Notes under the pieces: model-generated
What the model was told of the DNA's origin: nothing
Database searches by the model: none
The model's input: only the letters and a program-made list of their open reading frames with translations
In this document: positions 7,993 through 23,353 of the stretch, piece after piece
Numbering within the stretch: the first letter of the stretch is position 1
How the letters are laid out: the number at the start of each line of letters is the position of its first letter
Made by a program: the position numbers and the translations under genes
Assembly (NCBI GenBank): GCA_934271245.1
Contig: CAKQQY010000024.1
Location: 1 to 27,916, forward strand
Length of the DNA stretch: 27,916 nt
Origin: an uncultured Clostridia bacterium
GTDB taxonomy: Bacteria; Bacillota; Clostridia; Christensenellales; Borkfalkiaceae
Direction: 5' to 3'

Positions 7993-8826
7993 ATGGCTTG
8001 TTATTCTGGCACTCATTCGCATCGTTATGGTACTAATGGTAGTGAAAATAATCCTAACTGCGAGTTTGGTTGTCAAGGTAGTTGTGGTAATGCTTGTTTA
8101 AGCGGATCAGATAATACATCTTGCACAGTTTGTAAAAACGATTGTGAAGCTGGCTGTGGCAATTGTAATACCTTATGTGGCCCTTAGCCCAGTTGCGATA
8201 CACTATGCAGCGGCGGATGCACTGGTGCATGTGAAGCTGGATGTTCAACAGGTTGTTCTGGCGGATGCAGTGGCGATTGTCAAAGTGGATGCTCAGGCTC
8301 TTGTTCTGGTGGCTGTCAAGGGACTTGTATATCTGCTTGTGCTTAGAATTGCGCGGGTGGATGTACTAATAGCTGTGTTGGCACTTGTAATTATGGATGT
8401 TCCAGTGATGAGGTAAATGATTTATATTTAAATCTTCATTTATCACGTATTGCAGAAAGTGATGATATAAATACTATTAAAAAAATTATTTATAGATTAT
8501 TTGAAAATCTTCAAAAAAGCACTATCTCTAATGGTGATGAAAAATATATAAATGAATTTGGAGGAGACGATCCAATAGGCCTTGTAGCTGACTGGGAAGG
8601 CTGGATGGCCGATGGCACAGCTACATTCTCAATGCTGTTGGATAAAACATTTGAAGCTATTATTAATAACTTAAATACTCTTAATAAAGGCCGAGTAGAA
8701 ATTGATCAAAACAAAATGGCACCAATCAAAATTTGGAAAGACTCTATATCTGGTGAACAATTAAATACAGTTGATCGTGATGCGGCGCTTTATTGGATTG
8801 AATGTCTTAAAAAAATATATGAATAG
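7993..8826 (+). CDS. CXXX-repeat (Cys every 4th residue) protein with C-terminal globular domain, module 1 (2 TAG = Gln)
   Basis: Example repeat: CSGGCTGACEAGCSTGCSGGCSGDCQSGCSGSCSGGCQGTC. TAGs at 8185 and 8344. AGGAGG RBS. Starts MAC, as does the paralog. Confidence 0.7.
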
Positions 8827-8845
8827 GTTATGCCAGTAAAATAAT

Positions 8846-8901: not shown

Positions 8902-9342
8902 TTGATTGGAGAACCTATTTTTGATTACAATAAAGAAACTGGTGAAACCAGTTGTATAATTTCAGATGGTTAGAATATTTTTTATGGTATTTCTAAATGC
9001 CATCCAGAAGATAAAGAATTTTAGAGTGAATTCACAGGTTGTGAGATTGCAGAGCGCCGAGCGCGCATTAAAATTTTGCAACACATTAAAAATAATCAAA
9101 TCATTCCGCAAATTCAAGCTTATGAACATTTAATTAGCACTATGTTAAATAGCAAGCAATTAAATCCGCAATCTTATGAATTTAAACGTATTAAGGCCGA
9201 ATATGATAATTTACTTGATGAATATACTAAAATTAAAAATAATATTAAGTATCGTCAAGGTAAATTAAAAGATTACATTAATGATAAAGACAAGATGAAT
9301 AAGTATATTAAATTGCGCCAGGAGAAGAAAAATGATCGTTGA
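8902..9342 (+). CDS. Hypothetical protein (TTG start, 2 TAG = Gln)
   Basis: Continuous 147-codon frame only if TAGs at ~8971 and ~9022 are read through. AGGAGG RBS sits 9 nt upstream of the TTG. Motif SKCHPEDKEF...GCEIAERRA. Confidence 0.4.
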
Positions 9343-9505
9343 TGATTATATAATGGCTTAGATTGCACAAAATGAAAATTATAAGCCTACCTTGACGGAT
9401 TTGGGTATTTCAATTTATAATTCTGATGGAACATTAAAATCTACTAAATAGATTTTAAAAGAATTATCAGAAATATGGACCGATCCAGATAATTTATTTA
9501 CTTAA
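9332..9505 (+). CDS. Small hypothetical protein (2 TAG = Gln)
   Basis: ATGA overlap with the upstream gene. 57 codons. Confidence 0.3.
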
Positions 9506-9766
9506 TTTTTTATTATTAATAGGAATAATCCTTAGAAGGAGTTGGTTTTATTATAGTTTATTTTATTTTAGGTATAATATTTGCCAGCGTTGGAATGACA
9601 TTATTAGATTTTATTTCTGCGTTAATAGCAAATTTCGCCGAATTGGTTAAAGGCTGGTTTTCTGTGAAAATTTCATAGTATAATCGCCAAATCACAAATT
9701 TGAATGAAATGGATGAAGGCCCGCGGGCTATCGGTTTTTCAATACCATAGGAAGACGAGGTTGAAT

Positions 9767-10601
9767 ATGAAGATGATGAATAACTATTATGATACGTGTA
9801 GCTTGTTGATAAAGGGCAAAGATATAAAAAAAGATGAGCATATTTTAATTTCTTCAATTACTATTGATGAATTAGAAAATATAAAAACATCTGCAAATAA
9901 AGATGCAGATGTAAAATATACAGCTCGTCAGCTCTTGCGTAATATCAATGCAAATCCTGATATTTATTAGGTATTAATTTATAAAGAAAAAATGATTAAG
10001 CCTATTCAACGATTAGATTTATCAATAACTAATGATACAAAAATATTAGCTACGGCATTAGACTTCAATAAACATAATAAAACTCATCCCATTGATAATT
10101 TTATTACTAATGATTTAACTCTTAAATGTATCGCACGATTATTTCTATCTAACGTATCTTCATTAGAAGAAGGGGACCAAGAGCCATACACTGGTTACAT
10201 TGAGAAAACAATCTCGCAAGAAGAATTGATTAAATTTTATAATAATATTGGAGAAAATCAATATAATTTATTAAATGGTCAATATTTAATTCTACGTGAT
10301 GAAGAAGGTAATTTACTTGATGTAAGATGCTGGATGGATGATACACATAGATATCTTAATTCTAAGCCTATTGAATCAAAATGGTTTGGTAAAGTATCTC
10401 CATATAAAGGTGATGTGTATCAAAAATGCGCAATTGATAGCCTTGTAAATAATCAACTTACAGTATTTAGAGGCGGCGCCGGCGTAGGTAAATCCTTGCT
10501 CGGCCTTACTTATTTGTTCTCTCTATTGGAACAAGGTAAAATTGATAAAATTTATATGTTCTGTAATCCAATAGCTACCAGAGATAGTGCGAAGCTTGGC
10601 T
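9767..10601 (+). CDS. phoH: PIN-PhoH (PhoH2/YlaK-like) ATPase, exon 1 (1 TAG = Gln at 9968)
   Basis: N-terminal PIN-like YYDTCSLL...ITIDELENIK. Walker A GGAGVGKS. Ends ...SAKLG at a U, followed by a P1 pairing partner (GGGTCAAG) in the intron. Confidence 0.75.
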
Positions 10602-11901
10602 TAATCCATAGATAAGGGTCAAGTAAAACCTCGTGAATTGCTGGGACCTCCTTAAGATTTATTAACTACAACATAAGGATGAAATAAGCCTAAGTGTGAA
10701 TGTCTGAAAATAATAAATATTGGACAATCAGCAACCAAGCCCTGAATAGGGGAAGGCTCATCGACTATCGAAATCACATAGAAATATGGAAGAGAGTAGA
10801 GTAGGGCATAGCCCGAAGCGCGAGGGATTTAAACTGAAAAATTTTGGACAAAAAGTGAAAAATTATTTTCTCCAATTTTTAATAATAATAGAAAATAATA
10901 AAGGAGAAAATAATTTATGGATCAAGAAATTATTAATAAATATTTATCGGGATATTCAATAAGCAAATTATTATTAGAATATCCTACTTATAATAGAAGA
11001 TAGATTAATAAGTTATTTCGAGAAAATCAAATAACTATTAGAGGCGGAAGAAAAAAACGTGAATGGACAGAACAAGACAAAAAAGAAATCGAGCAAATGA
11101 TTGAAGATGGAGCATTTATAAAAGATATTAGTAAAAAATTTAAATGCAGCAAAGAAACATTAACTATAAAAATGGAAGAGTGGGGCATTAAATTAAAAAC
11201 TAAAAGTCATATAAATAGATGTATTAAACAAGATTATTTTTCAATTATAGACGCTCCTGAAAAAGCATACTGGTTAGGATTTTTATTTACTGATGGAAGT
11301 GTAGGATACATAAGAAATAGCAAACGTATTCGTCTTCAATTACAAGAAAAAGATTTAGAAATATTAGAACAATTCAAGAAAGATTTAAGTATAGAAACTA
11401 AAATTATTTATGATCGACGTCCTAATAGTGTATGTTGTTCTGTTGAATTTATATGTAGTTAGATTTTTGATGATTTAGGAAAATATAATATTATTCCTAA
11501 TAAAACTTATTTAACTTCTCATATTCCGTATGAAAAAATACCTCAAGAGTATTGGCCAGCATTTGCATTGGGCTTATTAGATGGTGATGGAAGCATTTTT
11601 GTAAGTAAAAATTGTAGCACAGATGTATCTATTAATTATACTGCTTATCATGAAAACGAAGTAGAAGATTTTCAAAATTTAATAAATTTTATAGCTAATA
11701 TAAATCATAAAAATAAAAATTTTTATACTTCAGCTTGGCATACTCAATGGAGAGGTCGTCTTCAAGTTTTAAAAATTCTTGATATTTTATACAATAATTG
11801 TCCAAGACATTTACAACGTAAATATGATATATACTTACGTTTAAAAAATAGTTTAAATTAAGATATAGTCAGTTTTATAGTGAAAGCTATAAAGTTTAAC
11901 G
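10602..11901 (+). mobile_element. Group I intron (~1300 nt) carrying a LAGLIDADG homing endonuclease ORF
   Basis: Exon 1 plus exon 2 give the contiguous PhoH motif KLGFYPGD, matching PhoH KLGFLPGD. The 5' exon ends in U paired to G in the IGS (CTTGGCT : GGGTCAAG). A P10-type pairing lies just upstream (GATAAG : TTTATC). The intron ends in G. A ~310 nt structured non-coding core precedes the ORF. Confidence 0.7.
10917..11862 (+). CDS. Double-motif LAGLIDADG homing endonuclease (intron-encoded; 2 TAG = Gln)
   Basis: Motif 1 WLGFLFTDGSV and motif 2 ALGLLDGDGSI. N-terminal HTH-like repeats. AAGGAG RBS. TAGs at 11001 and 11460. Confidence 0.8.
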
Positions 11902-12317
11902 TTTATCCTGGGGACAAGGACCTTAAGCTTCTTGATTCACAAATTGGCAATTTTCTTATAAGTAAATTTGGTGATAGAAATGCTGTTGAAGATTTAATTG
12001 CAGATGGTAAAATAATTCTTGTTCCGACGGCAGATTGCCGCGGTATGGATATTACAAATAATAGTGGAGTATATATTACAGAAGCACAAAATTCTACTAT
12101 CGATCTAATGAAATTAATGGTTCAACGCATTGGTGAAAATACCAAATGCGTAATTGAAGGCGATGATAAAACACAAGTTGATTTAATCTCTTATTCAGGC
12201 AATAATAATGGATTAATGAGATTATCAGAAGTATTTAGAGGACAACCTTATTATGGTGAAGTAACTCTTAAAAATTGTTATCGCTCTGAATTGGCTAAAC
12301 AAGCAGAATTAATGTAA
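11902..12317 (+). CDS. phoH: PIN-PhoH ATPase, exon 2
   Basis: VIEGDDKTQVDL matches PhoH ITGDxTQIDLP. IDLMKLMVQRIGENTK matches PhoH IEQMKMFLTRIGFNSK. C-terminal LKNCYRSELA. Confidence 0.75.
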
Positions 12318-12348
12318 GAGGAGAGGGGAAACCCTCTTCTCTTTTCTA
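12318..12348 (+). terminator. Terminator-like hairpin after phoH
   Basis: GAGGAGAGGG-GAAA-CCCTCTTCTC followed by a T-run. Confidence 0.5.
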
Positions 12349-12374
12349 TATCTTAAGAGGAAGGAGATAAAAAT

Positions 12375-12508
12375 ATGGCTTTTAAAATGAGAACAACTCG
12401 TCCAGAAGCCGGTAATAAATATTATATTACTAAAAATAATGGTGGATACTCTTATGCAATTAAGGGTAATCCAACAGATAAGCAAAATGATGTCTTGAGC
12501 AACTGCGT
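12375..12508 (+). CDS. Endolysin exon 1 (start of CHAP domain, includes the candidate catalytic Cys in SNCVG)
   Basis: AAGGAG RBS. ...LSNCVG resembles the CHAP GQCTW(Y) segment. The frame then hits TAA and 280 nt of non-coding sequence, after which the CHAP domain resumes. Junction is uncertain by a few nt. Confidence 0.6.
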
Positions 12509-12787
12509 GGGGTAAAAATACTATGCCCATAACTCACTATATCGGTTAAAGGGTGGAGACACTTCAGACCGAGGTAAGACTCTTAATTGAGAAACCTTAA
12601 CGACTGCGGGATAATAATAGTAATATTATTATTGAAGTGAGTTCTTCCAATAGGAAGTAATATACAGTCTGAACTATGGCTATAATCTAACTATGAAACC
12701 ATAGAGGTAGGATTAACGTCCTATCCGCCTTATATTTAAGGTCTTAAAGTAACAGAATGACGCATACGGTAGGTTCAATGAAATCGG
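12509..12787 (+). ncRNA. ORF-less group I-like intron (~279 nt) interrupting the endolysin CHAP domain
   Basis: Exon 1 and exon 2 are in the same frame, and the interval length is a multiple of 3. The best junction ends the exon at U and the intron at G, giving ...SNCVGYGYCKYL... No ORF. Contains an element similar to group I R/S motifs (CAGTCTGAACTATGG). Confidence 0.5.
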
Positions 12788-13901
12788 CGGCTATGGATAT
12801 TGTAAATATTTAAGTCCAGTTAATGCAGAACGCTTCCCGCAATATAACAATACTGGTATACCAATGGGTGATACCCCTAAACTTGGCGCGTGTATGGTAT
12901 GGCAGGGCGGACCAACATTACAAAGTGGTGATGGCGTTGGCCATGTGGCTATTGTTGAAAAAGTAATCAGTTCTACAGAAGTAATAACATCTGAAAGCGG
13001 TTGGGGCAGTAAGAACCCCTTCTGGACAGCAACACGCAAAAAAGGAAATGGTAACTGGGGAGCTGGCTCTGGCTATAAATTTCTTGGTTTTATATATAAT
13101 CCAGCAGTAAAGGATGATGATATTGTGAGTGATCAATATGGGTTTGGCGCTACCAATAGTCCATTAATAAATTATACGTAGATTAGCCCAAATCGCACCA
13201 GTCCACGCACTCATGTAATTGATACAGTCACTATACACTGTGTAGTTGGGCAATGTTCTGTTGAAACTCTTGGAAGTATATTTGCGCCAACAAATAAATA
13301 GGCTTCATCTAACTATGGCATTGGCCCAGATGGCCGAATTGGTATGTATGTAGAGGAAAAAGATCGGTCTTGGTGCTCTTCTAATGGAGCTAATGACGAT
13401 AGAGCAATCACTATTGAAGTTGCCAGCGATACTACTTCGCCATATAAAGTAACTGATAAAGCATATAATGCTCTTATTAAATTACTCGCTGATATTTGTT
13501 AGCGTAATAATATTAAATCACTTAAATGGAAAGCTGATAAAAGCTTAATCGGCCATCCAGAAGAACAGAATATGACTGTTCATAGATGGTTTGCGCATAA
13601 AACTTGCCCTGGTGATTACTTATATAATAAGCATTATGAAATTGCTGAAAAAGTAAATGAATTACTTGGTGTAGAGGAGGATGATGATATGACTCAGGAA
13701 AGATTTAATGAAATGATGGATAACTACATGAAAGAGCGCGCTGAATTAGATCCTAGTAAATGGTCTGCGCAGGCAAGAGCTTGGGCTGAAAGTAATGGTC
13801 TAATTAATGGTGATGCTCAAGGACGCACTATGTATAAAAAATATATGACGCGCGAAGAGGTTATCACTGTCTTATATCGTGCTATGAATAAGGGGAATTA
13901 A
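12788..13901 (+). CDS. Endolysin exon 2: rest of CHAP peptidase, Amidase_2 (PGRP-type N-acetylmuramoyl-L-alanine amidase), and C-terminal domain (3 TAG = Gln)
   Basis: CHAP: NAERF...TPKLGACMVWQGG...GHVAIVEKV...SESGWG. Amidase_2: THVIDTVTIHCVVG...GIGPDGRI...NDRAITIEVA...WFAHKTCPG. TAGs at 13179, 13299 and 13500 join three track ORFs. Confidence 0.75.
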
Positions 13902-14409: not shown

Positions 14410-14907
14410 ATGAAGGATATAAGAAAAAAAATGAATTATTCCATTGAAATAATTAATGCAATAGAACATAATGATATCAATTAGAGTGATGCATTAATTA
14501 GGTTATTTGATAATTTACCCAATGATGAAAAATTTAATGTAGATAATATGCTTTTAATGTATTTTAGGAATATATTTTTTAATAAAAAATTTGAAATGTT
14601 AAATGAAACATTTTATTATTTTTTAGAAAATTTAAAAACATTTAAGCATGAAAATATTCATTTGTATTATTCTATTTGGTATAATATTGCTACTTCTCAT
14701 CCTACTAATACTTATAATTTAAATAATTTAGTCGCATTGTTAGAGGCTCGACCTGATATAGTCAATTGCTTGAATGATTATGATTTCCAATGTCTTATTT
14801 CTACTCTGGTATGTCAAGATAAAATTGAGTTAGTTAATCGTGTCAATAGGATAATGCATGGATAGGCTAATGAAAATCAACCTATGGAAAGTGAGCAATA
14901 CATTTAA
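14410..14907 (+). CDS. Hypothetical protein, first gene of CXXX-repeat module 2 (2 TAG = Gln)
   Basis: AAGGAGG RBS. TAGs at 14482 and 14863. No recognisable motif. Confidence 0.45.
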
Positions 14908-15176
14908 TGATTAAATATATTCCAATAGAACATGAAGAAGCAGTTGAAGCTTGTCGTTTATATCATGAATATAATGCTTACAAAGGCATTATGAGAAGAT
15001 TAAATATATTAAATATATCTTCTGAATTAAAAATAACTTATAAATTAAAATATTTTGATGCTCTTCTCAAAAGAGATTTATTTAATAAACATTTTTGCGC
15101 AAAATATTTAAATCCAGAAGATACATTAGATTTTAGAATTGATATAGCTAATGATTTATTAATATATGGAGAATAA
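14907..15176 (+). CDS. Small accessory protein of CXXX-repeat module 2
   Basis: Homologous to the 6440 ORF (IKYIPIEHEE vs ILRIPIEEKD). Overlaps the upstream stop by 1 nt. Confidence 0.5.
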   Translation: MIKYIPIEHEEAVEACRLYHEYNAYKGIMRRLNILNISSELKITYKLKYFDALLKRDLFNKHFCAKYLNPEDTLDFRIDIANDLLIYGE

Positions 15177-15179
15177 TAA

Positions 15180-16493
15180 ATGCTAAAGAACCAATATGAT
15201 TATATAGATTTTTATTATATGATTTATGGCTTAGATGCCGTTTCAGCTTATCAGACACATTATATTAAAAATATTACATTCCAAGTTACAGAAGATTGTA
15301 ATTTAGGATGTTCTTATTGTTATCAAATTTGTAAATCTAAAAATAAAATGACATTTGATACAGCAAAGAAAATTATTGATTATTTATTTATAGAACGAGA
15401 AAATCCTCAATCAGAATTCTGTGAAGAAAAGACCAAAGGATTTGTATTTGATTTTATAGGCGGAGAACCGTTTCTTGAGATTGATTTAATTGAGCAAATA
15501 TGTGATTATTTTGAAGAAAAGCTTCTTCAATATCCAGATAGTCCATGGATTATAAATCATGCTTATAGTTTTTCTACTAATGGCACATTGTATTTTACTC
15601 CAAAAGTGCAACATTATATTAATAAGTATAGAGAATATTTAAGCATTAGTGTTACTATTGATGGTTGTAAAGAATTACATGATCAATGTAGAGTATTTAA
15701 AGGAACTAATAAAGGTAGTTACGATATAGCTATTCAAGCGGCATTAAATGAGCTACGCAATAATCACAATGGAGCAACTAAAATTACTATGGCTCCAGCT
15801 AATATAAAGTATGTGGCCGATGGTCTTATTAATATGCTATCTCTTGGATTTACTATTATCAATATTAATTGTGTATTTGAAGAAGGATGGCAATTATCAG
15901 ATGCTCAAGAACTATATAATCAAATGAATATTGTTAGTAAATATTTAATTGATAATAATTTAAATAATAAAGTTTATATTGCAATTTTTGATGCTGGTAA
16001 ATATAGACCCATTAGTGAAGATACACTTGCCCATAATTGGTGTGGAGTTTCTAGTAGAACTATGACAGCATTTAATTATAAAGGTGATATGTATCCCTGT
16101 ATTAGATTTATGGAAAGCTCAACTGGTCATAATGTTGAACCATTTATTGTTGGTAATATTGAACATGGATTATGTGGAACTCCAGAAGAAAAAGAAAGAT
16201 ATGAAAAAGTGTCTTCATTGACCATAGAAAGTATGTCTCCTCAAAAATGTATTGATTGTCCTATCGGAGGAGGATGTGCCTGGTGTACTGGTTATTGTTA
16301 TCAACGAGGAGATATTGAGCATAAAACATTATTTATTTGTCAAATGTATAAAGCTCAAGCATTAGCGTGTAAAAAATATTATCATGATATTAAAGATTGG
16401 GAGACCTATGATAAAATAAATATACCTGATGAAATGGCCTTAGAAATTATTTCTCAGGATGAATGGAATAAATTTAATAAGAAGGAGGAATAA
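15180..16493 (+). CDS. Radical SAM/SPASM peptide maturase, CXXX-repeat target family, paralog 2 (no TAG)
   Basis: CNLGCSYCYQ, GGEPFLE, SPASM cluster CIDCPIGGGCAWCTGYCYQ. Paralog of 6695..7957. Confidence 0.9.
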   Translation: MLKNQYDYIDFYYMIYGLDAVSAYQTHYIKNITFQVTEDCNLGCSYCYQICKSKNKMTFDTAKKIIDYLFIERENPQSEFCEEKTKGFVFDFIGGEPFLEIDLIEQICDYFEEKLLQYPDSPWIINHAYSFSTNGTLYFTPKVQHYINKYREYLSISVTIDGCKELHDQCRVFKGTNKGSYDIAIQAALNELRNNHNGATKITMAPANIKYVADGLINMLSLGFTIININCVFEEGWQLSDAQELYNQMNIVSKYLIDNNLNNKVYIAIFDAGKYRPISEDTLAHNWCGVSSRTMTAFNYKGDMYPCIRFMESSTGHNVEPFIVGNIEHGLCGTPEEKERYEKVSSLTIESMSPQKCIDCPIGGGCAWCTGYCYQRGDIEHKTLFICQMYKAQALACKKYYHDIKDWETYDKINIPDEMALEIISQDEWNKFNKKEE

Positions 16494-16495
16494 TT

Positions 16496-17161
16496 ATGGC
16501 TTGTGTTACTGGTGATACTTGTACTGGTACAAGTTATAAAGCTGGTGATTGTTCAGTTGGTGGATGTATTTCATCTTGTTCTGCTTGTAGTAGTGTATGT
16601 GGAAATACTTGCACTGGTGACTGCGAAAATGGTTGTTAGAATACTTGCATAAGAGGATGCGGTAGTTCTTGTGGTGGCTGTGGAAGCAGTTGCTCTGGTG
16701 GCTGTGATGGCACTTGTAGCGGTAGTTGCACTGGTTGTTCAGGCACTTGTAGTGGTTATTGTGGTGATGGATGCTCCGGCAGTTGCGGGAGTAGTTGTTC
16801 TACTAATTGCACTAATACATGCACTGGAACATGTGCGAATGGTTGTAATACAACATTATTCAATTCTGCCTATGCTAATTTAGTATTAAATGATATTATA
16901 TTAGATGAAGATATAACTACAATAGTGGATTGGATTAAACGCGAAGGTAGCTTAAAAGGTGTTGCTATGGCTTCTCCAGAAGTAACAGTTGGAGAATCAG
17001 TTCCAGTCTTATATCAAGCATTTAATTCAATAATGGCTAATTTGCAGGCAATGGGCCAAAGCTTATCTTACACACCTGTTACTGGTAATGATATTAAGAA
17101 AGCATCTGTCCAAGAGTATATAGATAAAGCAAAAGTAATATATGAAACTATGTTACCTTAA
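16496..17161 (+). CDS. CXXX-repeat protein with C-terminal globular domain, module 2 (1 TAG = Gln)
   Basis: CGSSCGGCGSSCSGGCDGTCSGSCTGCSGTCSGYCGDGCSGSCGSSC. TAG at 16637. AAGGAGG RBS. Confidence 0.7.
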
Positions 17162-17915: not shown

Positions 17916-18605
17916 AATATAAGTAGTGGTATTTATAAAATAACAAATAAAATCAATAATAAGATTTATATTGGATGTTCTAAAAATATTGAACATAGAT
18001 GGGTAGCTCATAAATCAGAATCAATTTTAGAGCAATATCCTCCTTATAATTATTCTATACATAGAGCTTTTCGTAAATATGGTATTGATAATTTTAATTT
18101 TGAAATTATTGAAATAATAAATAATGAAACTCAATTATTTGCTAGAGAAAAATACTGGATAAAATATTATGATTCATATTATAATGGTTATAATGAAACT
18201 GAAGGAGGAGACGGTGGACCTAGCTTACCATTAGAATCAAATCCTAACAGCAAACTTAAAAACGAAGATATAATTTATATAAGAACCTTATAGCTAGAGG
18301 GGAAAATGCCTTCTGAAGTTTATTCTTTATTTAGCGATAGGATTTCTCGTCGAGGATTTGATCATATTTGGAGAGGAGAAAATTGGAAAGAATTAGTACC
18401 AGAAGCGATAAAGTATGTCCACAGCAAAGAATATAAAATAGCTATTAAAAAATTTGCTAGAGAAAAACAAATAAATGAAGATAAAAAACAAATTTTTAAT
18501 GATATTAAAGAAAAGAAGCAAAAAGGATTAAAACGTATGGATGTATATGAAGAGTATAAAAATATTTATAGTTTAAGCGGTTTTAATAAGGTATGGTATA
18601 AATGA
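17916..18605 (+). CDS. GIY-YIG homing-type endonuclease (start codon unresolved; 1 TAG = Gln at 18291)
   Basis: SGIYKITNKINNKIYIGCSKNIEHRW...YN...GG. The frame opens at 17916 after a TAA and contains no ATG. Continues through the TAG into the track ORF 18306..18605. Confidence 0.55.
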
Positions 18606-19078
18606 TTATATTTGTCGATGGAGCTTGTAGTCAAAATGGTAAAGCCAATAGCAAAGGCGGATTTGGTGTAGTAGTTTTTGATGATAACAACAGACTGATT
18701 GATGCTTATGGGCATTGGGAAGAGCATACTACAAATAATATTCAAGAATTAAAAGCTGTTTTATATGCAATTTATCATTATGGTAATAAATCTATAGTAC
18801 CTATTGTATATACAGATAGCTCTTATGTTCATCAGGCATTTACAAAATGGATGTATAATTGGGCTAATAACGGATGGCTTAAAAGTGATAAAAAAGAGCC
18901 AGAAAATTTAGAATTAATTCAAACGTATTATTATTTAATTAAAAAAGGATATAGAATTGATTTACGCAAAGTAACAGGGCATTCCGGCGTCAAAGGTAAT
19001 GAATTGGCTGATATGATTGCTACTGGTAAAATTAATCCTAAAGATTTAATCAATAAGGAGGACATGAATGGCCAATAA
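18602..19078 (+). CDS. rnhA: Ribonuclease H (RNase HI-like)
   Basis: DGAC, TNNIQELKA, YTDSSYV, GHSGVKGNELADMIA. ATGA overlap with the upstream gene. Confidence 0.8.
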   Translation: MIIFVDGACSQNGKANSKGGFGVVVFDDNNRLIDAYGHWEEHTTNNIQELKAVLYAIYHYGNKSIVPIVYTDSSYVHQAFTKWMYNWANNGWLKSDKKEPENLELIQTYYYLIKKGYRIDLRKVTGHSGVKGNELADMIATGKINPKDLINKEDMNGQ

Positions 19079-20960
19079 ATTATACACAGAAGATAGTATT
19101 CAATCACTGTCGCCCCTTGAATTTACTCGACTTAGACCAGGTGTATATTGTGGCTCTACTGAATATTCAACTCAATTACTTATTGAAATTGTATCAAATG
19201 CAGTAGATGAATATTGTGCAGGTCATGGAGATACAATTAAAGTTATTACTAATGAAGATCATAGTATTGTGGTAGAGGATAATGGACAAGGTTTTATTCC
19301 AAATGCAATGCGAGAAGATGGCAAGACTATCCTTGAAGCTTCATTTAGTGTATTAAATACTTCTGGCAAATATGATGACAATGGGGTCTATCAAGGAGTA
19401 GCCCTTGGCTTGAATGGTATTGGTAGTAAATTATCCTGTTTTCTTAGCCATTGGTTAAAGGTTACTACATGGCGTGATGGATCTTATGAAGAAATTACAT
19501 TTACAGAAGGTATTCTCTCTAATAGAATAACTGGAAAATGTGAAAAAGACAAGCATGGCACTAAAGTTAATTGGTTACCAAGTGAAGAATTTTTTACTCA
19601 TACTGAAATTAATTTAAATACTATTAAACAATTATTTAAGGTTCTTGTATGCTTATGTCCTGGGTTAAAAATTGTTCTTAATGATGAAGAATATTACTCG
19701 GCCAATGGATTAACTGATTTAGTCAATGATGCTGTTAAGAAAACAGAAATTATTAATAATAGATTAATTATTAAAAAAGATGAAGGAAAAAATAAATTAG
19801 ATTTTGAATTAACTTATACTGATAATTATACTTCTACTATTGTTCCTTATGTAAATACAGGACTTACTGATAGTGGTCCTCATATTACATTAATTAAAAC
19901 TATTCTTACTCGTGAATTAAATAAATTTTTCCGTGAAAAGAAATGGTTAAAAGATAAAGAAGAAAATTTATCAGGTGAAGATTGTCAAGAAGGATTGTAT
20001 CTTGTATTTAATCTTACTACTTCTGGAGTAAGTTATGATGCTCAGACTAAGAGTAGAATTGTAAAATTAGATATGTCACCATTTACTCCTTGGATTACTG
20101 AAGGAATTCGACAATGGCTTGAACTTAATGAGAAATCAATTAAAATTATTGCTGATAAAGCATTAAATGCACGACGCGCCAGAGAAGCTGCACGTAAAGC
20201 CAGAGAAGCCGTCAGACAACCAAAAGAAAAGAAGAAACAATTCTTAAATCTTCCCAGTAAACTTGTTGATTGTTGGAGCAAAGATAGAAGTAAGTGCGAG
20301 CTGTTCGTGGTCGAGGGGGATTCAGCCGCTGGCGGTCTTGTAGAAGCACGAGATGCTGAACATATTGCTATTTTCCCTGTTAGAGGTAAAATTATTTCAA
20401 GTTATAAAAATAGTAGCGAGAAAATTTTTGCTAATCAAGAAGTAGTTAATCTTATTAAAGCTATTGGTTTAGAATTAGATAGTAAAACTAATAAATTGAT
20501 TTATGATGAAAAAAAATTACGTTATGGTAAGATTTTTTTAGCAGCAGACGCTGATCCGGATGGGGCCAGCATCAGAAACCTCTTGATTGAAATGTTCTGG
20601 TGGTTATGCCCTGAATTAATTGAAAATGGGCATTTATATACAACCATGCCACCATTATTTAGAATTACTACTAAGAAAAATCAATACATTTTTATTAAAG
20701 ATGCTATTGAATTAGAAAAATATAAAGAATTGCATAAGGGTGAAAGTTTTTTAATCAACAGAAACAAAGGCCTGGGGGAGCAAGACCCTGATGAATTAGC
20801 AGAAGCCTTATTAAATCCTGAAACAAGAAATATAGCTCAATTAGTGATTGAAGATAAAAAATCAACAGAGAATTTAATTGAAATGTTGCTTGGACCAAGT
20901 GTACCGCCAAGAAGAGCATATCTATTAGCGCATAGTGAGGAGGCAAATGACAATGATTAA
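19068..20960 (+). CDS. Type II DNA topoisomerase, ATPase/TOPRIM subunit (GyrB/ParE / T4 gp39-like)
   Basis: GHKL ATPase motifs (VDEYCAGHG, VEDNGQGFIP, LNGIGSKL), TOPRIM VVEGDSAAG, and DADPDG. AAGGAGG RBS. Confidence 0.9.
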   Translation: MANKLYTEDSIQSLSPLEFTRLRPGVYCGSTEYSTQLLIEIVSNAVDEYCAGHGDTIKVITNEDHSIVVEDNGQGFIPNAMREDGKTILEASFSVLNTSGKYDDNGVYQGVALGLNGIGSKLSCFLSHWLKVTTWRDGSYEEITFTEGILSNRITGKCEKDKHGTKVNWLPSEEFFTHTEINLNTIKQLFKVLVCLCPGLKIVLNDEEYYSANGLTDLVNDAVKKTEIINNRLIIKKDEGKNKLDFELTYTDNYTSTIVPYVNTGLTDSGPHITLIKTILTRELNKFFREKKWLKDKEENLSGEDCQEGLYLVFNLTTSGVSYDAQTKSRIVKLDMSPFTPWITEGIRQWLELNEKSIKIIADKALNARRAREAARKAREAVRQPKEKKKQFLNLPSKLVDCWSKDRSKCELFVVEGDSAAGGLVEARDAEHIAIFPVRGKIISSYKNSSEKIFANQEVVNLIKAIGLELDSKTNKLIYDEKKLRYGKIFLAADADPDGASIRNLLIEMFWWLCPELIENGHLYTTMPPLFRITTKKNQYIFIKDAIELEKYKELHKGESFLINRNKGLGEQDPDELAEALLNPETRNIAQLVIEDKKSTENLIEMLLGPSVPPRRAYLLAHSEEANDND

Positions 20961-23298
20961 TATTAATCAAGAATTATCACAGAATTTCCTTGATTTTTCT
21001 TATGAAGCAAATAGTCAACGTGCATTTGCCGATGCCAGAGACGGCCTAAAGCCAGGCCAACGCGCGTGCCTATGGGAAATGTACTCAAAAGGCTATTCCA
21101 GCGCTAAACCACATGTTAAATCTGCAAAGATCAGTGGTGGCGTCATTAGTTCATGGTGGCCCCATGGTAATGTAGCAATTTATGATACATTTGCTCGTAT
21201 GTCTCAACCTTGGATTAATAATATTCCAGAAGTAGACTGGCATGGAGCAAATGGATCTATTCAAATAAGTAGTGAAGCGGCCGCAGATCGTTATACAGAA
21301 GCCCGTCTCTCTAAATCTACTGAAGATGGATTATTTGTAGGAATTAAGAAAAATAATGTTCCTATGAAATTAAATTTTTCAGAAGATGAAGAATGGCCAG
21401 AAGTATTACCAGCTCTGTATCCTCGTCTTATGGTAAATGGATGTCAAGGTATTGGATCTACCATTGCTAATATATGGCTTCCTCATTCTCTTGATGAATT
21501 AGCCGAAGTGATTAATGAATATCTTAAAACAGATACAATTAATTACTCTAAATTGGCCCCTTCATTTCCTACTGGTGGAATTATTGTAAATAAAGATGAG
21601 CTTGAAACAATTTACAAAACTGGTAAGGGTAAAGTAGTCCTCCGGGCCAAAACGGAAATTGTAGGTAATAATATTTTAATTACTGAAATCCCTTATCAAA
21701 TTTATGTTGAGCCATTTATTGAAAGTGTTAGACAATTAATTTTGAAAGATGAATTAACTAATATTGTTAATATTACAAATAAAAGTAATAAAAAACAGTT
21801 ATTAATTGAAATTGAATGCGATGCTAATCCTTCAATAGTATTAACAAAATTATTTCAAAAAACTGATTTGCAAAAAACATTTAATGCAAATCAATATGCT
21901 CTTATCGGTAAAACACCAAAGTTACTTAATTTTAAAGATTATATTGATACATTTTTAAATCATAATTATCAATGTATTGAAAAAGAATATACTTATGATT
22001 TAGAAAAATCTAAAAAAAGACTTGAAATTGTAGAAGGATTAATTAAAGCTCTTGAAGATATTGATAATATTATTGCGTTAATTAAAAGTAGTAATAGTTC
22101 TAAAGATGCAATAATTAATCTTATCAACAAATATAAATTTACTGAAAATCAAGCTCAAGCTATTGTTAATATGAAGCTTGGCCGTTTAGCACATTTGGAA
22201 GTAATTGAATTAAATCAAGAAAAAATTGATTTAACATCTACGATTACCAATTGCGAAGATGTTATTACTCACTTAGATAAGAAAAAACAAATTTTTATTG
22301 AAAGATTTAATTCATTTATTAAAAAATATCCAAATCCGCGCAAGACACAATTAACTCAATTAAATTATAATCCAAAAGTAGAAAAAGAAATAGTAAATGT
22401 AGAGCCTGAAAAATGTGTCGTTGTAGTAACTGAAGGTGGAACTATTAAGCGTATTCCTATTACCAGTTTTAAAATCCAAAAGCGCAATGGAAAAGGTGTA
22501 AAATCGCAAGAAGATATTACACATTGTGTAATTCGGACAAATACTATTGATAATCTTATGTTGTTTACTAATAAAGGTATTATGTATAAGTTATTGGTAA
22601 ATGATATTCCAGTAGGCACAAATGCAAGCGCTGGAACACCTATTTCGGCATTAGTAAAAATGAGTGTAGGTGAACAAGTTATTACTATTTATTCTATTTA
22701 TCGAGATACAGATGCGAAGTATGTATTATTTGCCACTAAGCAAGGATTAATTAAAAAAGTTCCTCTTGAAGAGTATACTGGTATGCGTAAGAAGACTGGC
22801 GTCTCAGCAACCACATTACATGATGGAGATAACTTAGCTAATGTATCCTTAATTAAAGATGAGCAATTAATTGTATTAACTAAAAACGGTTATGCAATTA
22901 AAATCAATAGTAGTGAACTTGGCACATCTTCTCGTATTGCTATGGGCGTTAAAGCTATTAATCTCAATGATGGTGATGAAGTAGCTTGCGTATTACCAAT
23001 TCGTGATAATACAGATTATTTTGGTATTTTTACTCGAAATGGATTTAGTAAAAAAATTAATTTAAGTGAACTATCATTACAAAAACGTGCAGGTCGAGGA
23101 ATTGTTGTATATAAGCCCACTGCTGAAACAGGTGAAGTGATTGATGCTTCTCTTATCAATGATACTGATAATTTATTTATTTGTGGAGATAAGAAAAATA
23201 TTTGTATTTCAGCTAAGGATATTATATATGCAAGTCGCACTGCTATTGGCAACTCAGTTATTAAAAATGAAAAAATTAAGAAAGTGACAAAAATTTGA
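20947..23298 (+). CDS. Type II DNA topoisomerase, DNA breakage-reunion subunit (GyrA/ParC / T4 gp52-like)
   Basis: RDGLKPGQRACLWEMY, and active-site AADRYTEARLS with catalytic Tyr. GAGGAGG RBS before the ATG at 20947. The track start at 20935 is probably too early. Confidence 0.9.
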   Translation: MTMININQELSQNFLDFSYEANSQRAFADARDGLKPGQRACLWEMYSKGYSSAKPHVKSAKISGGVISSWWPHGNVAIYDTFARMSQPWINNIPEVDWHGANGSIQISSEAAADRYTEARLSKSTEDGLFVGIKKNNVPMKLNFSEDEEWPEVLPALYPRLMVNGCQGIGSTIANIWLPHSLDELAEVINEYLKTDTINYSKLAPSFPTGGIIVNKDELETIYKTGKGKVVLRAKTEIVGNNILITEIPYQIYVEPFIESVRQLILKDELTNIVNITNKSNKKQLLIEIECDANPSIVLTKLFQKTDLQKTFNANQYALIGKTPKLLNFKDYIDTFLNHNYQCIEKEYTYDLEKSKKRLEIVEGLIKALEDIDNIIALIKSSNSSKDAIINLINKYKFTENQAQAIVNMKLGRLAHLEVIELNQEKIDLTSTITNCEDVITHLDKKKQIFIERFNSFIKKYPNPRKTQLTQLNYNPKVEKEIVNVEPEKCVVVVTEGGTIKRIPITSFKIQKRNGKGVKSQEDITHCVIRTNTIDNLMLFTNKGIMYKLLVNDIPVGTNASAGTPISALVKMSVGEQVITIYSIYRDTDAKYVLFATKQGLIKKVPLEEYTGMRKKTGVSATTLHDGDNLANVSLIKDEQLIVLTKNGYAIKINSSELGTSSRIAMGVKAINLNDGDEVACVLPIRDNTDYFGIFTRNGFSKKINLSELSLQKRAGRGIVVYKPTAETGEVIDASLINDTDNLFICGDKKNICISAKDIIYASRTAIGNSVIKNEKIKKVTKI

Positions 23299-23299
23299 T

Positions 23300-23328
23300 T
23301 TGCATTTTTAAAAATTTTTTCGTATAAT
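23300..23328 (+). promoter_or_regulatory. Sigma-70 promoter TTGCAT-17-TATAAT
   Basis: Canonical spacing, upstream of the ligase gene. Confidence 0.5.
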
Positions 23329-23353
23329 ATAAATAAAGAAAGGGATAAAAAAT

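What the first reader, a model, noticed from the sequence alone, without database searches (positions are those of the whole stretch)
9767..12317. PIN-PhoH gene split by a group I intron carrying a TAG-recoded LAGLIDADG homing endonuclease
Exon 1 ends ...SAKLG and exon 2 resumes (F)YPGDKDLK, which restores the conserved PhoH segment KLGFLPGD. The 5' splice site follows a U that can wobble-pair with the IGS (CTTGGCT/GGGTCAAG). A P10 partner (GATAAG vs TTTATC) sits directly 5' of the IGS. The intron ends in G. The HEG lies in a 3' peripheral position, has its own SD, and needs TAG=Gln for a full-length product. This means homing-endonuclease expression is tied to the recoding state.
Basis: partly seen in the sequence, partly recalled or inferred. 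Interest (0 to 1): 0.6.

Follow-up and report, generated by a model that had tools for sequence, protein, structure and literature searches.

The report
Mobile intron splitting a phage PhoH gene
A phage gene for a PIN-PhoH RNA-processing enzyme is interrupted by a self-splicing group I intron carrying its own LAGLIDADG homing-endonuclease gene, and this phage reads the stop codon TAG as glutamine; it is a clean example of a kind of element already described, not a new kind.

Summary
A PIN-PhoH (PhoH2-type) gene is split into exon 1 (9767-10601) and exon 2 (11902-12317) by a 1300-nt group I intron (10602-11901). The joined 416-aa product matches Pfam PhoH and PIN_4 in single stretches. It is colinear with uninterrupted genes in more than 12 related phages.

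P1, P10, P3, P5b, P6a, P7.1, P8 and P9 all show compensatory base changes across six copies at the same site. Rfam does not call the window copy at its gathering score; it gives two half-hits of 33.2 and 20.8 bits. A copy that has lost its endonuclease gene, at the same site in a relative, scores 68.2 bits over the full model.

The endonuclease gene (10917-11861, 314 codons, two LAGLIDADG motifs) sits in the P8 loop, not in a 3' peripheral position. Its only in-frame stops are two TAGs, which align with Gln codons in orthologues (dN/dS 0.07-0.20). TAG=Gln holds across the window.

That full-length endonuclease needs TAG decoding is shown. That this times its expression is inference, and it was already proposed for TGA-recoded phages (Borges et al.). 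This is a new member of a known kind.

Seen in passing: a second, ORF-less intron in the adjacent endolysin gene, and relatives whose P8 loop holds about 4.7 kb of genes.

The parts
9767..10601 (+). PhoH2 (PIN-PhoH) exon 1: 278 codons plus 1 nt. In-frame TAG at 9968-9970 (codon 68) lies in the PIN domain.
   Evidence: Pfam PIN_4 matches 9-124 and PhoH matches from 218. The N-terminus MKMMNNYYDTCSLL aligns with relatives. TAG codon 68 aligns with Gln in L001-L004.
10595..10601 (+). P1 5' strand (the last 7 exon nucleotides, CUUGGCU). The 5' splice site follows U10601.
   Evidence: It pairs with 10617-10623 and all six sequences are 100% paired. There are two compensatory changes: C-G to G-C, and U-A to A-U in L052.
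10602..11901 (+). Group I intron, 1300 nt, IA2-like: P7.1 and P7.2 present, no P2.
   Evidence: Rfam RF00028 half-hits at 10621-10826 (33.2 bits) and 11839-11890 (20.8 bits). The HEG-less orthologue in L121 scores 68.2 bits. Covariation is shown. The core is 70-78% identical to introns in SP-15, ICP1 and Staphylococcus phages.
10613..10615 (+). TAA that ends exon-1 read-through four codons into the intron, in the P1 loop upstream of the guide sequence.
   Evidence: Read directly from the sequence. L011, L013 and L052 also have TAA, not TAG, at this point.
10611..10616 (+). P10 5' strand (GAUAAG), pairing with exon 2 at 11902-11907.
   Evidence: 100% paired in six sequences, with an A-U to G-C compensatory change in L011 and L013.
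10617..10623 (+). Internal guide sequence (GGUCAAG), the P1 3' strand.
10629..10825 (+). Core 5' half. P3 10629-10635 / 10819-10825. P4 10639-10644 / 10728-10733. P5 10649-10651 / 10722-10724. P5a 10657-10663 / 10712-10718. P5b 10676-10678 / 10689-10691. P6 and P6a 10735-10756. P7 5' strand 10763-10768. P7.1 10777-10788. P7.2 10804-10814.
   Evidence: Rfam alignment, hand model and pair counts. Compensatory changes occur in P3, P5b, P6a and P7.1. P4 and P7 are invariant.
10826..10836 (+). P8 5' strand (GAUUUAAACUG).
   Evidence: It pairs with 11849-11859 across the HEG. Rfam aligns the same strands as P8 in the HEG-less L121 copy. There is an A-U to U-A change in L052. In L065/L089 the helix is a fully different but perfectly complementary 18 bp.
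10903..10906 (+). Shine-Dalgarno-like GGAG, 10 nt upstream of the HEG start codon.
   Evidence: Read directly from the sequence. L011 and L013 have GAGGA before a TTG start.
10917..11861 (+). Homing endonuclease gene in L8: 314 codons plus TAA. N-terminal helix-turn-helix-like region followed by two LAGLIDADG motifs (LGFLFTDGS and LGLLDGDGS). In-frame TAG at 11001-11003 and 11460-11462.
   Evidence: Pfam LAGLIDADG_3 and LAGLIDADG_1 both score above their cut-offs, and phrog_4645 gives 3.8e-49. Orthologues in L011, L013 and L020 are 66-68% identical, all 314 codons, with TAG as the only in-frame stop and dN/dS 0.07-0.20.
11849..11859 (+). P8 3' strand (UAGUUUAAAUU), which overlaps the last HEG codons and the first base of its stop codon.
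11860..11870 (+). J8/7 plus the P7 3' strand (AAGAUAUAGUC).
   Evidence: It matches the Rfam consensus AAGAUAUAGUC exactly. P7 is GACUAU (10763-10768) paired with AUAGUC (11865-11870), invariant in six sequences.
11873..11894 (+). P9 hairpin with a GAAA loop.
   Evidence: G-C to A-U compensatory change in relatives. L065/L089 has a different stem sequence with the same GAAA hairpin.
11901..11901 (+). Terminal G (omega-G) at the 3' splice site.
   Evidence: G is conserved at this position in all copies.
11902..12317 (+). PhoH2 exon 2: 2 nt plus 137 codons plus TAA.
   Evidence: tblastn and Pfam continuity across the junction.
12316..12345 (+). Intrinsic-terminator-like hairpin (12-bp stem, GAAA loop, T run) just after the PhoH2 stop codon.
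   Evidence: This is a consensus match only.

Best explanation
Window 9767-12317 is a single PhoH2 (PIN + PhoH ATPase) gene of an uncultivated, low-GC phage that decodes TAG as glutamine. A mobile IA2-like group I intron (10602-11901) interrupts it inside the conserved KLGF(Y/L)PGD motif.

Inferred from the anatomy, the pre-mRNA folds so that the last seven exon nucleotides pair with the guide GGUCAAG (P1, U.G at the cleavage site). Exogenous G bound in P7 attacks after U10601. P10 (GAUAAG/UUUAUC) then aligns exon 2. The 3' OH of exon 1 attacks after G11901, giving an mRNA for a 416-aa PhoH2. Ribosomes that read into the unspliced intron stop at TAA 10613-10615, before the guide sequence.

The loop of P8 holds a 314-codon gene with its own ribosome-binding site. 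It encodes a single-chain, two-motif LAGLIDADG endonuclease with an N-terminal helix-turn-helix-like extension. By analogy with other intron HEGs, it cuts intron-less PhoH2 alleles in co-infecting relatives. Repair from the intron-bearing genome then copies the intron in (homing).

The HEG has TAG at codons 29 and 182, so only a cell state that decodes TAG as Gln yields full-length enzyme. The host gene (one TAG) and about half the genes in the window share this dependence.

Shown here: gene continuity, RNA architecture with covariation, HEG family and integrity, TAG=Gln, and presence/absence polymorphism of the intron and of the HEG.

Inferred: self-splicing, cleavage and homing activity, and any timing role of the TAG codons.
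For: **Gene**
- The spliced product hits Pfam PhoH (1.6e-25, one stretch 218-412), PIN_4 (4.1e-09) and phrog_2765 over residues 3-415.
- 58 GenBank phage records hold a place covering at least 80% of it; those listed are single uninterrupted alignments covering 95-100%. Twelve IMG/VR loci have it uninterrupted at 43-59% identity.

**Intron**
- Rfam RF00028 gives half-hits of 33.2 and 20.8 bits.
- The same site is occupied in L011, L013 and L020 (with HEG), in L121 and L133 (365 nt, with a 3' HEG remnant) and in L052 (348 nt).
- L121 scores 68.2 bits, full length.
- In the 78-pair model, 93.3% of cells are paired. Sixteen pairs have double-sided changes, against 6.1 +/- 1.7 in shuffles (0/500) and at most 4 when partners are slid.
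- The core is 70-78% identical to introns in Bacillus phage SP-15 (annotated as a joined CDS), ICP1, Serratia and Staphylococcus phages.
- P7.1 and P7.2 joined by a conserved GUA-containing linker, with no P2, match the IA2 criteria quoted in PMC3428280.

**HEG**
- Pfam LAGLIDADG_3 and LAGLIDADG_1 score above their cut-offs, and phrog_4645 gives 3.8e-49.
- Homologues at about 27% identity are annotated 'intron-encoded putative endonuclease' next to a homologous intron core in Staphylococcus Silviavirus phages.
- In the three orthologues compared codon by codon, all are 314 codons and the only in-frame stops are TAG. Eight of nine TAG columns hold CAA or CAG in another sequence. dN/dS is 0.07-0.20. 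A fourth orthologue, L020, is also 314 codons with six TAG and no in-frame TAA or TGA.

**Code**
- No gene in the window ends in TAG.
- Three of three TAGs in radical-SAM gene 6695-7990 align with Gln in its TAG-free paralogue 15180-16493.
Against: - The window copy does not reach Rfam's gathering score as one hit.
- P4 and P7 are invariant in the available copies, so they carry no covariation evidence.
- The P5a alignment is out of register in the MAFFT alignment (52% of cells paired), although by eye it covaries.
- No suppressor tRNA(CUA) lies in the window.
- The HEG has no sequence relative in the PDB. Its fold and activity are untested.
- In the window itself the HEG is not richer in TAG than its host gene (2/15 against 1/16 Gln codons, p = 0.47). 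Nothing here shows that the TAGs are a dedicated control device.
Confidence: 0.9

Rival explanations
1. The intron and HEG are real, but the in-frame TAGs have no regulatory meaning. In a genome where TAG is a Gln codon they are ordinary synonymous codons that arise by CAG-to-TAG transitions. HEG expression is then no more 'tied' to recoding than that of any other TAG-bearing gene.
For: - The host PhoH2 gene also has a TAG.
- Thirteen of the 25 genes tabulated in the window have TAGs, at 6-50% of their Gln codons.
- The window HEG is at 13%, which is the low end.
- TAG positions differ between orthologues and swap freely with CAA and CAG.
Against: - In L013 and L020 the HEG is much richer in TAG than its host gene: 7/11 against 1/13 (p = 0.006) and 6/11 against 2/16 (p = 0.027).
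- TAG-free genes in the window cluster: gyrA, gyrB, ligase, RNase H, and 23-6282. This is the pattern Borges et al. read as early/late partitioning. They also report an intron endonuclease as preferentially recoded in a TGA-recoded clade.
Confidence: 0.5
2. The in-frame TAGs act as a timing gate. Early in infection host RF1 terminates at TAG, so no endonuclease is made. Once the phage's TAG-decoding machinery is active, full-length HEG appears. This confines DNA cleavage and homing to late infection.
For: - Full-length HEG needs TAG read-through at codon 29, so without it only 28 residues are made.
- HEGs are TAG-enriched relative to the host gene in two relatives.
- Genes in the window are partitioned into TAG-free and TAG-bearing groups.
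- The same idea has been published for Agate phages.
Against: - There is no expression data.
- There is no enrichment in the window copy or in L011.
- L013 and L020 are not independent samples.
- The host gene PhoH2 also needs TAG decoding, so the intron does not sit in a standard-code 'early' gene as in the published case.
Confidence: 0.35
3. The HEG is a decaying pseudogene whose TAGs are genuine premature stops. The intron is on its way to losing its endonuclease.
For: HEG loss does happen at this site. L121 and L133 keep only about 60 nt of the HEG 3' end, and L052 has none.
Against: - The three orthologues compared codon by codon (window, L011, L013) and L020 all keep exactly 314 codons with no indels.
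- There are no in-frame TAA or TGA, only TAG.
- dN/dS is 0.07-0.20.
- TAG aligns with CAA or CAG Gln in 8 of 9 columns.
- TAG=Gln is independently supported by paralogues in the window.
Confidence: 0.03
4. There is no splicing. The gene is permanently split, and exon 2 is translated on its own from GTG 11880 (or the two halves act as separate subunits).
For: A GTG-initiated ORF, 11880-12317, exists.
Against: - There is no SD-like sequence before 11880, and that GTG lies inside the P9 stem.
- P1 and P10 co-vary with synonymous exon changes. This is expected only if exon-intron pairing is under selection.
- HEG-less copies keep the whole ribozyme core.
- The break falls inside a conserved motif within the PhoH ATPase domain.
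Confidence: 0.02

Closest known systems
Phage IA2 group I introns with a homing-endonuclease gene looped out of the core (T4 td/nrdB/nrdD, SPO1/SP82 DNA polymerase, Twort and Staphylococcus Kayvirus/Silviavirus introns, Pf-WMP3 DNA polymerase intron)
   Same: - Same core architecture: P1, P3-P9 and P10, with P7.1 and P7.2 joined by a GUA-containing linker. P2 is absent, as in the Pf-WMP3, PhiI and W31 introns (PMC3428280).
- Inserted in a conserved motif of a phage enzyme gene.
- The HEG has its own ribosome-binding site.
- An in-frame stop follows shortly after the 5' splice site.
- The core is 70-78% identical in DNA to introns in SP-15 (major capsid gene), ICP1, Serratia and Staphylococcus phages.
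   Different: - The host gene, PhoH2, did not come up as an intron host in my literature search. That is not an exhaustive negative.
- The HEG is LAGLIDADG, not the HNH or GIY-YIG types of the classic T4 and SPO1 cases (the latter from my own knowledge).
- The genome uses TAG=Gln.
Staphylococcus Silviavirus (StAP1, SA11, Remus/Romulus-type) intron with 'intron-encoded putative endonuclease'
   Same: - A homologous intron 5' core (about 75-77% identity over about 95 nt) is followed a few hundred nt downstream by a homologous endonuclease ORF.
- That ORF is 27-30% identical over 95% of its length and belongs to the same PHROG-type family.
- The intron-core-then-ORF order is the same.
   Different: - Different host gene: recombinase-like or hypothetical ORFs.
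- Standard genetic code.
- Protein identity is low.
Recoded group I intron endonuclease in Agate phages (Borges et al., bioRxiv 10.1101/2021.08.26.457843)
   Same: [quoted passage not shown] The authors propose that these block endonuclease production until late in infection.
   Different: - There the recoded codon is TGA=Trp and the intron sits in an early, standard-code gene.
- Here the codon is TAG=Gln and the host gene itself carries a TAG.
- The window HEG is not TAG-enriched, although two orthologues are.
PhoH2 (PIN-PhoH) proteins of Bacillus, Geobacillus, Alicyclobacillus and Enterococcus phages
   Same: They share the two-domain architecture. The spliced product is 35-38% identical to them over 95-100% of its length.
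   Different: Those genes are uninterrupted and use the standard code.

Membership tests
Group I intron | P1 helix between the 5' exon end and an internal guide sequence, with a U.G wobble at the cleavage site. | tested here: met
   CUUGGCU (10595-10601) pairs with GGUCAAG (10617-10623). All 7 pairs form in all 6 sequences, U.G is invariant, and there are two double-sided compensatory changes.
Group I intron | Conserved core helices P3-P9, including the P3/P7 pseudoknot and the J8/7 consensus. | tested here: met
   Rfam aligns P3, P4, P5, P6, J6/7, J8/7 and P9. AAGAUAUAGUC matches the consensus exactly. The hand model is 93.3% paired, with 16 covarying pairs against 6.1 +/- 1.7 in shuffles. 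P4 and P7 are invariant, so they are uninformative.
Group I intron | Terminal G (omega-G) and a P10 pairing that aligns the 3' exon. | tested here: met
   G11901 is conserved in all copies. P10 is GAUAAG/UUUAUC, with an A-U to G-C compensatory change.
Group I intron | Score at or above the Rfam RF00028 gathering threshold (50 bits). | tested here: inconclusive
   The window gives no hit in gathering mode and two half-hits of 33.2 and 20.8 bits, split by the 1-kb L8 insert. An HEG-deleted orthologue at the same site (L121, core 84.6% identical by blastn) scores 68.2 bits over model 1-253. The window intron with L8 removed could not be submitted to the Rfam tool.
Group I intron | Removing the intron restores an ORF colinear with intron-less homologues. 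| tested here: met
Group I intron | Self-splicing by two transesterifications started by exogenous guanosine. | not testable with these tools
   This needs in vitro transcription and splicing, or RNA-seq.
Subgroup IA2 | P7.1 and P7.2 between P7 and P3', joined by a GUA-containing linker. | tested here: met
   P7.1 (10777-10788) has two compensatory pairs. P7.2 (10804-10814) is a hairpin in all copies but is poorly aligned. The linker GUAGAGUA is invariant. The criterion is taken from PMC3428280. No formal subgroup classifier was run.
LAGLIDADG homing endonuclease | LAGLIDADG motif(s) with a conserved acidic residue. Two motifs in one chain indicate a monomeric enzyme. | tested here: met
   The motifs are LGFLFTDGS and LGLLDGDGS. 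Pfam LAGLIDADG_3 scores 29.9 bits (cut-off 22.5) and LAGLIDADG_1 scores 23.8 (cut-off 23.1).
LAGLIDADG homing endonuclease | The alpha-beta-beta-alpha-beta-beta-alpha fold. | not tested
   No structure prediction was run. The PDB sequence search found nothing.
LAGLIDADG homing endonuclease | Site-specific cleavage of the intron-less allele, and homing. | not testable with these tools
   The only indirect evidence is the presence/absence pattern of the intron at one site among related phages, together with HEG+, HEG-remnant and HEG-less forms.
TAG-to-Gln recoded phage (genetic code 15) | TAG occurs in frame inside conserved genes, aligns with Gln in homologues, and is not used as a terminator. 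| tested here: met
   - No gene in the window ends in TAG.
- Three of three TAGs align with Gln in the radical-SAM paralogue pair.
- Eight of nine TAG columns in the HEG align with Gln codons.
- PhoH codon 68 aligns with Gln in relatives.
TAG-to-Gln recoded phage (genetic code 15) | A phage-encoded suppressor tRNA with anticodon CUA. | tested here: inconclusive
   ARAGORN finds no tRNA in the 27.9-kb window. The rest of the genome is not available.
PhoH2 (PIN-PhoH) | N-terminal PIN domain plus C-terminal PhoH P-loop ATPase domain. | tested here: met
   Pfam PIN_4 (37.3 bits) and PhoH (90.3 bits). The Walker A motif GGAGVGKS is present. phrog_2765 matches end to end.

The most novel reading that the evidence does not exclude
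In TAG=Gln phages, selfish homing-endonuclease genes are preferentially loaded with in-frame TAG codons, so that DNA cleavage and homing are licensed only after the phage switches the cell to the alternative code. Orthologues reach 55-64% of Gln codons as TAG, against 8-12% in the host gene. Separately, the P8 loop of this intron lineage is a general cargo bay. In two related phages it holds a roughly 4.7-kb, seven-ORF cassette instead of a HEG, including at least one radical-SAM-like enzyme. That would make it a gene-shuttling group I intron.
Probability: 0.25. Interest if true: 0.6.

Novelty: new member of a known kind. Interest (0 to 1): 0.35.

Why it matters
This is a clean, well-supported case for annotation. 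Standard-code gene callers would break this one gene into five ORFs (9704-9970, 9992-10615, 11097-11462, 11568-11861, 11880-12317). Rfam in its default gathering mode gives no intron call.

The set of related contigs gives a natural series at one site: empty site, intron with HEG, intron with HEG remnant, intron without HEG, and intron with multi-gene cargo. That series is useful material for studying the homing-endonuclease life cycle in uncultivated phages.

It extends the published link between stop-codon recoding and intron endonucleases from a TGA-recoded clade to a TAG-recoded one. It does not establish a new mechanism.

Tried and rejected
- **Rfam gathering mode.** It gave nothing on the whole window or on nine related loci. 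The second result is a false negative of the speed filters, because L121 scores 68.2 bits in E-value mode.
- **Rfam's local hairpin for P8 in the window** (GUUUAAA/UUUAAAU, 11840-11860). I rejected it in favour of the long-range P8 (10826-10836 / 11849-11859). Rfam itself uses the long-range pairing in the HEG-less L121 copy. That pairing also covaries in L052 and in L065/L089.
- **Alternative P5 pairing UCCUUA/UAAGGA.** Rejected because L011 has UACGAA there.
- **Possible ACAU/AUGU helix inside the P5 extension.** Not supported, because L052 breaks it.
- **Conserved AAATTTTGGACAAAAA upstream of the HEG as a repeated phage promoter.** There were 4 matches within 3 mismatches against 2.6 expected, so it is not enriched.
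- **Sigma-70-like sites in 9300-12700.** 21 found against 20.8 expected, which is uninformative.
- **PDB sequence search with the HEG.** Nothing below E = 0.6.
- **Megablast of 25 kb of the window against GenBank phages.** No match, so the phage is not a deposited isolate.
- **Literature search for an intron in phoH.** No paper surfaced by title or abstract, but I did not open the 12 papers that hold all three terms.
- **tblastn of the 4.7-kb cargo ORFs against the window.** No homologues.


Full report
**1. What is in the sequence**

Under the standard bacterial code, window 9700-12320 reads as five same-strand ORFs. ORFs 9704-9970 and 9992-10615 are in the same frame, separated only by TAG 9968-9970. 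ORFs 11097-11462 and 11568-11861 belong to one TAG-interrupted frame, 10917-11861.

Joining 9767-10601 to 11902-12317 gives an open frame of 416 codons with that single in-frame TAG. With TAG read as Gln, the product matches:
- Pfam PhoH, 1.6e-25, in one stretch 218-412 that runs across the junction at residue 279.
- Pfam PIN_4, residues 9-124.
- phrog_2765, residues 3-415 of a 443-position profile.

In GenBank phages, 58 records hold a place covering at least 80% of the joined protein. Those listed cover 95-100% in one uninterrupted piece at 34-38% identity, for example Alicyclobacillus phage KKP_3916, Geobacillus virus E3 and many Bacillus siphoviruses annotated PhoH or PhoH2.

**2. Relatives with and without the insertion**

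A scan of IMG/VR found 12 loci with an uninterrupted orthologue at 43-59% identity. It also found two loci (L011, L013) in which the match stops at residue 279. In both, exon 2 resumes about 1.29 kb downstream. A 314-residue protein 66-68% identical to the window's inner ORF lies in between.

A search with a 17-mer from the intron core (GACAATCAGCAACCAAG) hit more than 120 IMG/VR contigs. Among them were more copies at the same PhoH site:
- L020, with the endonuclease gene.
- L121 and L133, 365 nt, keeping only the last roughly 60 nt of the endonuclease gene.
- L052, 348 nt, with no trace of it.

This pattern of empty site, full element, decayed element and ORF-less element is what a mobile intron with a homing endonuclease is expected to leave.

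**3. Is it a group I intron?**

Rfam at its gathering score reports nothing in the window. With the permissive setting, RF00028 (Intron_gpI) hits twice:
- 10621-10826: 33.2 bits, E = 2.5e-06, model positions 43-158 (P3, P4, P5, P6, J6/7, P3').
- 11839-11890: 20.8 bits, model positions 159-251 (P8, J8/7, P7', P9).

The split falls exactly where the 1-kb ORF lies. The HEG-deleted copy in L121 has a core 84.6% identical to the window's by blastn. It scores 68.2 bits, E = 2.8e-17, over the whole model 1-253. Gathering mode had missed that hit too, so its silence is a filter effect.

I wrote a full model on six copies with the L8 interior removed (alignment A3) and counted pairs.
- 93.3% of 463 cells are standard pairs, against 87.4% in shuffles and 34-52% when partners are slid.
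- 16 of 78 pairs change on both sides, against 6.1 +/- 1.7 in shuffles (0 of 500 reach 16) and at most 4 for slid partners.

Compensatory changes fall in these helices:
- P1: exon C-G to G-C through a synonymous GGC-to-GGG change, and U-A to A-U through CTT-to-TTA in L052.
- P10: A-U to G-C through TAT-to-TAC.
- P3, P5b, P6a, P7.1, P8 and P9.

P4 and P7 never vary, so they say nothing either way. The MAFFT alignment puts P5a out of register. By eye it covaries (AUUUAUU/AAUAAAU, CCGAUU/AAUUGG, CUUUCU/AGAAAG).

The intron has no P2. It has P7.1 and P7.2 joined by an invariant GUAGAGUA. These are the criteria used to assign phage introns to IA2 in PMC3428280, where a P2-less example is described.

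Its 5' core is 70-78% identical to introns in Bacillus phage SP-15 (capsid gene annotated as a join, with an endonuclease ORF in the same relative position), Vibrio ICP1, Serratia jumbo phages, Flavobacterium and many Staphylococcus phages.

Reading from exon 1 into the intron stops at TAA 10613-10615, in the P1 loop before the guide sequence. Relatives also use TAA there, which is a true stop in this code.

**4. Where the endonuclease gene sits**

It is in the loop of P8. The 5' strand GAUUUAAACUG (10826-10836) pairs with UAGUUUAAAUU (11849-11859).

Three observations support this:
- Rfam aligns these same strands as P8 in L121.
- L052 has an A-U to U-A swap in the helix.
- In L065/L089 the helix has a completely different sequence but is a perfect 18-bp complement.

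The last four HEG codons and the first base of its TAA form the 3' strand of P8.

**5. The endonuclease**

The ORF 10917-11861 has GGAG 10 nt upstream of its start codon. It carries two LAGLIDADG motifs (LGFLFTDGS and LGLLDGDGS). It passes the Pfam cut-offs for LAGLIDADG_3 and LAGLIDADG_1, has a weak HTH_7 match near the N-terminus, and matches phrog_4645 ('endonuclease') at 3.8e-49.

Its relatives in GenBank include ORFs annotated 'intron-encoded putative endonuclease' in Staphylococcus Silviavirus phages. These lie just downstream of a homologous intron core. There is no sequence relative in the PDB. I did not test the fold or the activity.

**6. TAG recoding**

In the window, L011 and L013, compared codon by codon, the HEG is exactly 314 codons. 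The only in-frame stops are TAG (2, 3 and 7 respectively). Of nine alignment columns that hold a TAG, eight hold CAA or CAG in another sequence. Pairwise dN/dS is 0.07-0.20. L020 also has 314 codons, with six TAG and no in-frame TAA or TGA. The gene is intact and under purifying selection when TAG is read as sense.

Across the window no gene ends in TAG. In the radical-SAM gene 6695-7990, three of three TAGs align with Gln in the TAG-free paralogue 15180-16493. PhoH codon 68 aligns with Gln in relatives. No tRNA gene lies in the window.

TAG-bearing and TAG-free genes are clustered. The TAG-free ones are 23-6282, 14907-16493 and 18602-24562, the last of which includes RNase H, gyrB, gyrA and ligase.

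**7. 'Expression tied to recoding'**

A full-length endonuclease needs TAG decoding from codon 29 onward. That much is shown. Whether it is a control device is not shown.

| Copy | TAG share of Gln codons, HEG | TAG share of Gln codons, PhoH | Fisher p |
|---|---|---|---|
| window | 2/15 | 1/16 | 0.47 |
| L011 | 3/11 | 3/13 | 0.59 |
| L013 | 7/11 | 1/13 | 0.006 |
| L020 | 6/11 | 2/16 | 0.027 |

L013 and L020 are related, so these are not independent tests. The idea itself is in print. Borges et al. report a group I intron endonuclease that is preferentially recoded in TGA-recoded Agate phages. They propose that in-frame stops delay its production until late in infection.

**8. Verdict**

The element is a new member of a known kind: a mobile IA2-like phage group I intron with a LAGLIDADG HEG in L8, here in a PhoH2 gene of a TAG=Gln phage. 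Interest is moderate.

**9. Seen on the way**

*(a) A second intron.* Sequence 12514-12759 (246 nt, no ORF) splits the adjacent CHAP-Amidase_2 endolysin gene at its catalytic-Cys motif (NCVG|YAYGRF).
- The joined product gives a single CHAP stretch of 44.5 bits, against 28.5 bits for the downstream part alone.
- It is colinear at about 82% identity with uninterrupted genes in eight loci.
- L011 has a 1-kb version at the same site, with a GIY-YIG ORF in the P1 loop and two compensatory stem changes.
- A hand model gives P1 and P3-P9 with a terminal G.
- Rfam finds nothing even at E <= 1, and blastn against phages finds nothing.

*(b) A cargo-carrying variant.* In contigs 3300045988_175607 and _177309 the PhoH intron's L8 holds about 4.7 kb with seven same-strand ORFs and no LAGLIDADG gene. 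One ORF gives a weak Radical_SAM hit. Another carries a CxxxCxxC motif.

Noticed in passing
window 12375-13901 (intron 12514-12759): A second, ORF-less 246-nt group I-like intron splits the adjacent CHAP-Amidase_2 endolysin gene inside the catalytic-Cys motif (NCVG|YAYGRF). The joined product gives one CHAP stretch (44.5 bits) and is colinear at about 82% identity with uninterrupted genes in eight related loci. L011 has a roughly 1-kb version at the same site with a GIY-YIG ORF in the P1 loop. Rfam gives no hit even at E <= 1, and blastn against phages finds nothing. MFE z-score is -3.74.
   Followed up: yes
L065 (4694-4835) + L089 (1-4883); also L081 (1-1567, minus strand): In two related contigs the same PhoH site holds a homologous intron. 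Its P8 is a perfect 18-bp helix (AATTCAAGCTTAAATAAT / ATTATTTAAGCTTGAATT) enclosing about 4.7 kb with seven same-strand ORFs. One gives a weak Radical_SAM hit, one has a CxxxCxxC motif, and one is Ser/Thr-rich. There is no LAGLIDADG gene. This may be a cargo-carrying group I intron.
   Followed up: partly
L121 1516-1880, L133 1167-1531, L052 (minus strand, intron about 348 nt): These are HEG-loss derivatives of the same intron at the same site. L121 and L133 keep only about 60 nt of the HEG 3' end inside L8, and L052 has none. Together with the HEG+ copies and the empty sites they form a full homing-endonuclease life-cycle series.
   Followed up: yes
L001-L010, L012, L014 versus the intron-bearing loci, at the insertion site: Eleven of the twelve intron-less alleles read TTAGGTT|TTTATCCAGG; L012 reads TTAGGCT|TCTACCCCGG. 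Most intron-bearing alleles read CTTGGGT|TTTATCC(T/A)GG or CTTGGGT|TTTACCCCGG (the window has GGC, and L052 has TTAGGGT). The amino acids are the same and the differences are synonymous next to the site. This could reflect P1/P10 pairing constraints, co-conversion, or target-site immunity.
   Followed up: partly
window 6695-8844 and 15180-17161: Two paralogous cassettes each pair a radical-SAM/SPASM-like enzyme with a long Cys-rich protein (GCxGxC-type repeats). The first cassette carries six in-frame TAGs. In the second, the enzyme has none and the Cys-rich gene has one.
   Followed up: no
window 23-1813 and 4894-6282: A major-vault-protein-like protein (Pfam MVP_shoulder, Vault_3) and an SPFH/flotillin-like protein are encoded in a phage genome. 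Both genes are TAG-free and, unlike the rest of the window, use CAG far more than CAA for Gln (21:2 and 19:5).
   Followed up: no
window 17916-18605 and 25239-26237: Two ORFs contain GIY-YIG domains and may be free-standing homing endonucleases. The second has 11 in-frame TAGs, 48% of its Gln codons, which is the highest count in the window and among its highest shares.
   Followed up: no
L121 and other loci (method): Rfam 'gathering' mode over 78 kb returned no hit for a sequence that scores 68.2 bits (above the 50-bit threshold) when a 500-nt stretch is searched in E-value mode. A negative result in gathering mode is therefore not reliable for AT-rich phage introns.
   Followed up: yes
window 9392-9421 and 12316-12345: A near-consensus sigma-70-like site (TTGACG-18-TATAAT) lies upstream of PhoH2, and a strong terminator-like hairpin lies just after its stop codon. 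Together they suggest a self-contained transcription unit. These are consensus matches only.
   Followed up: no
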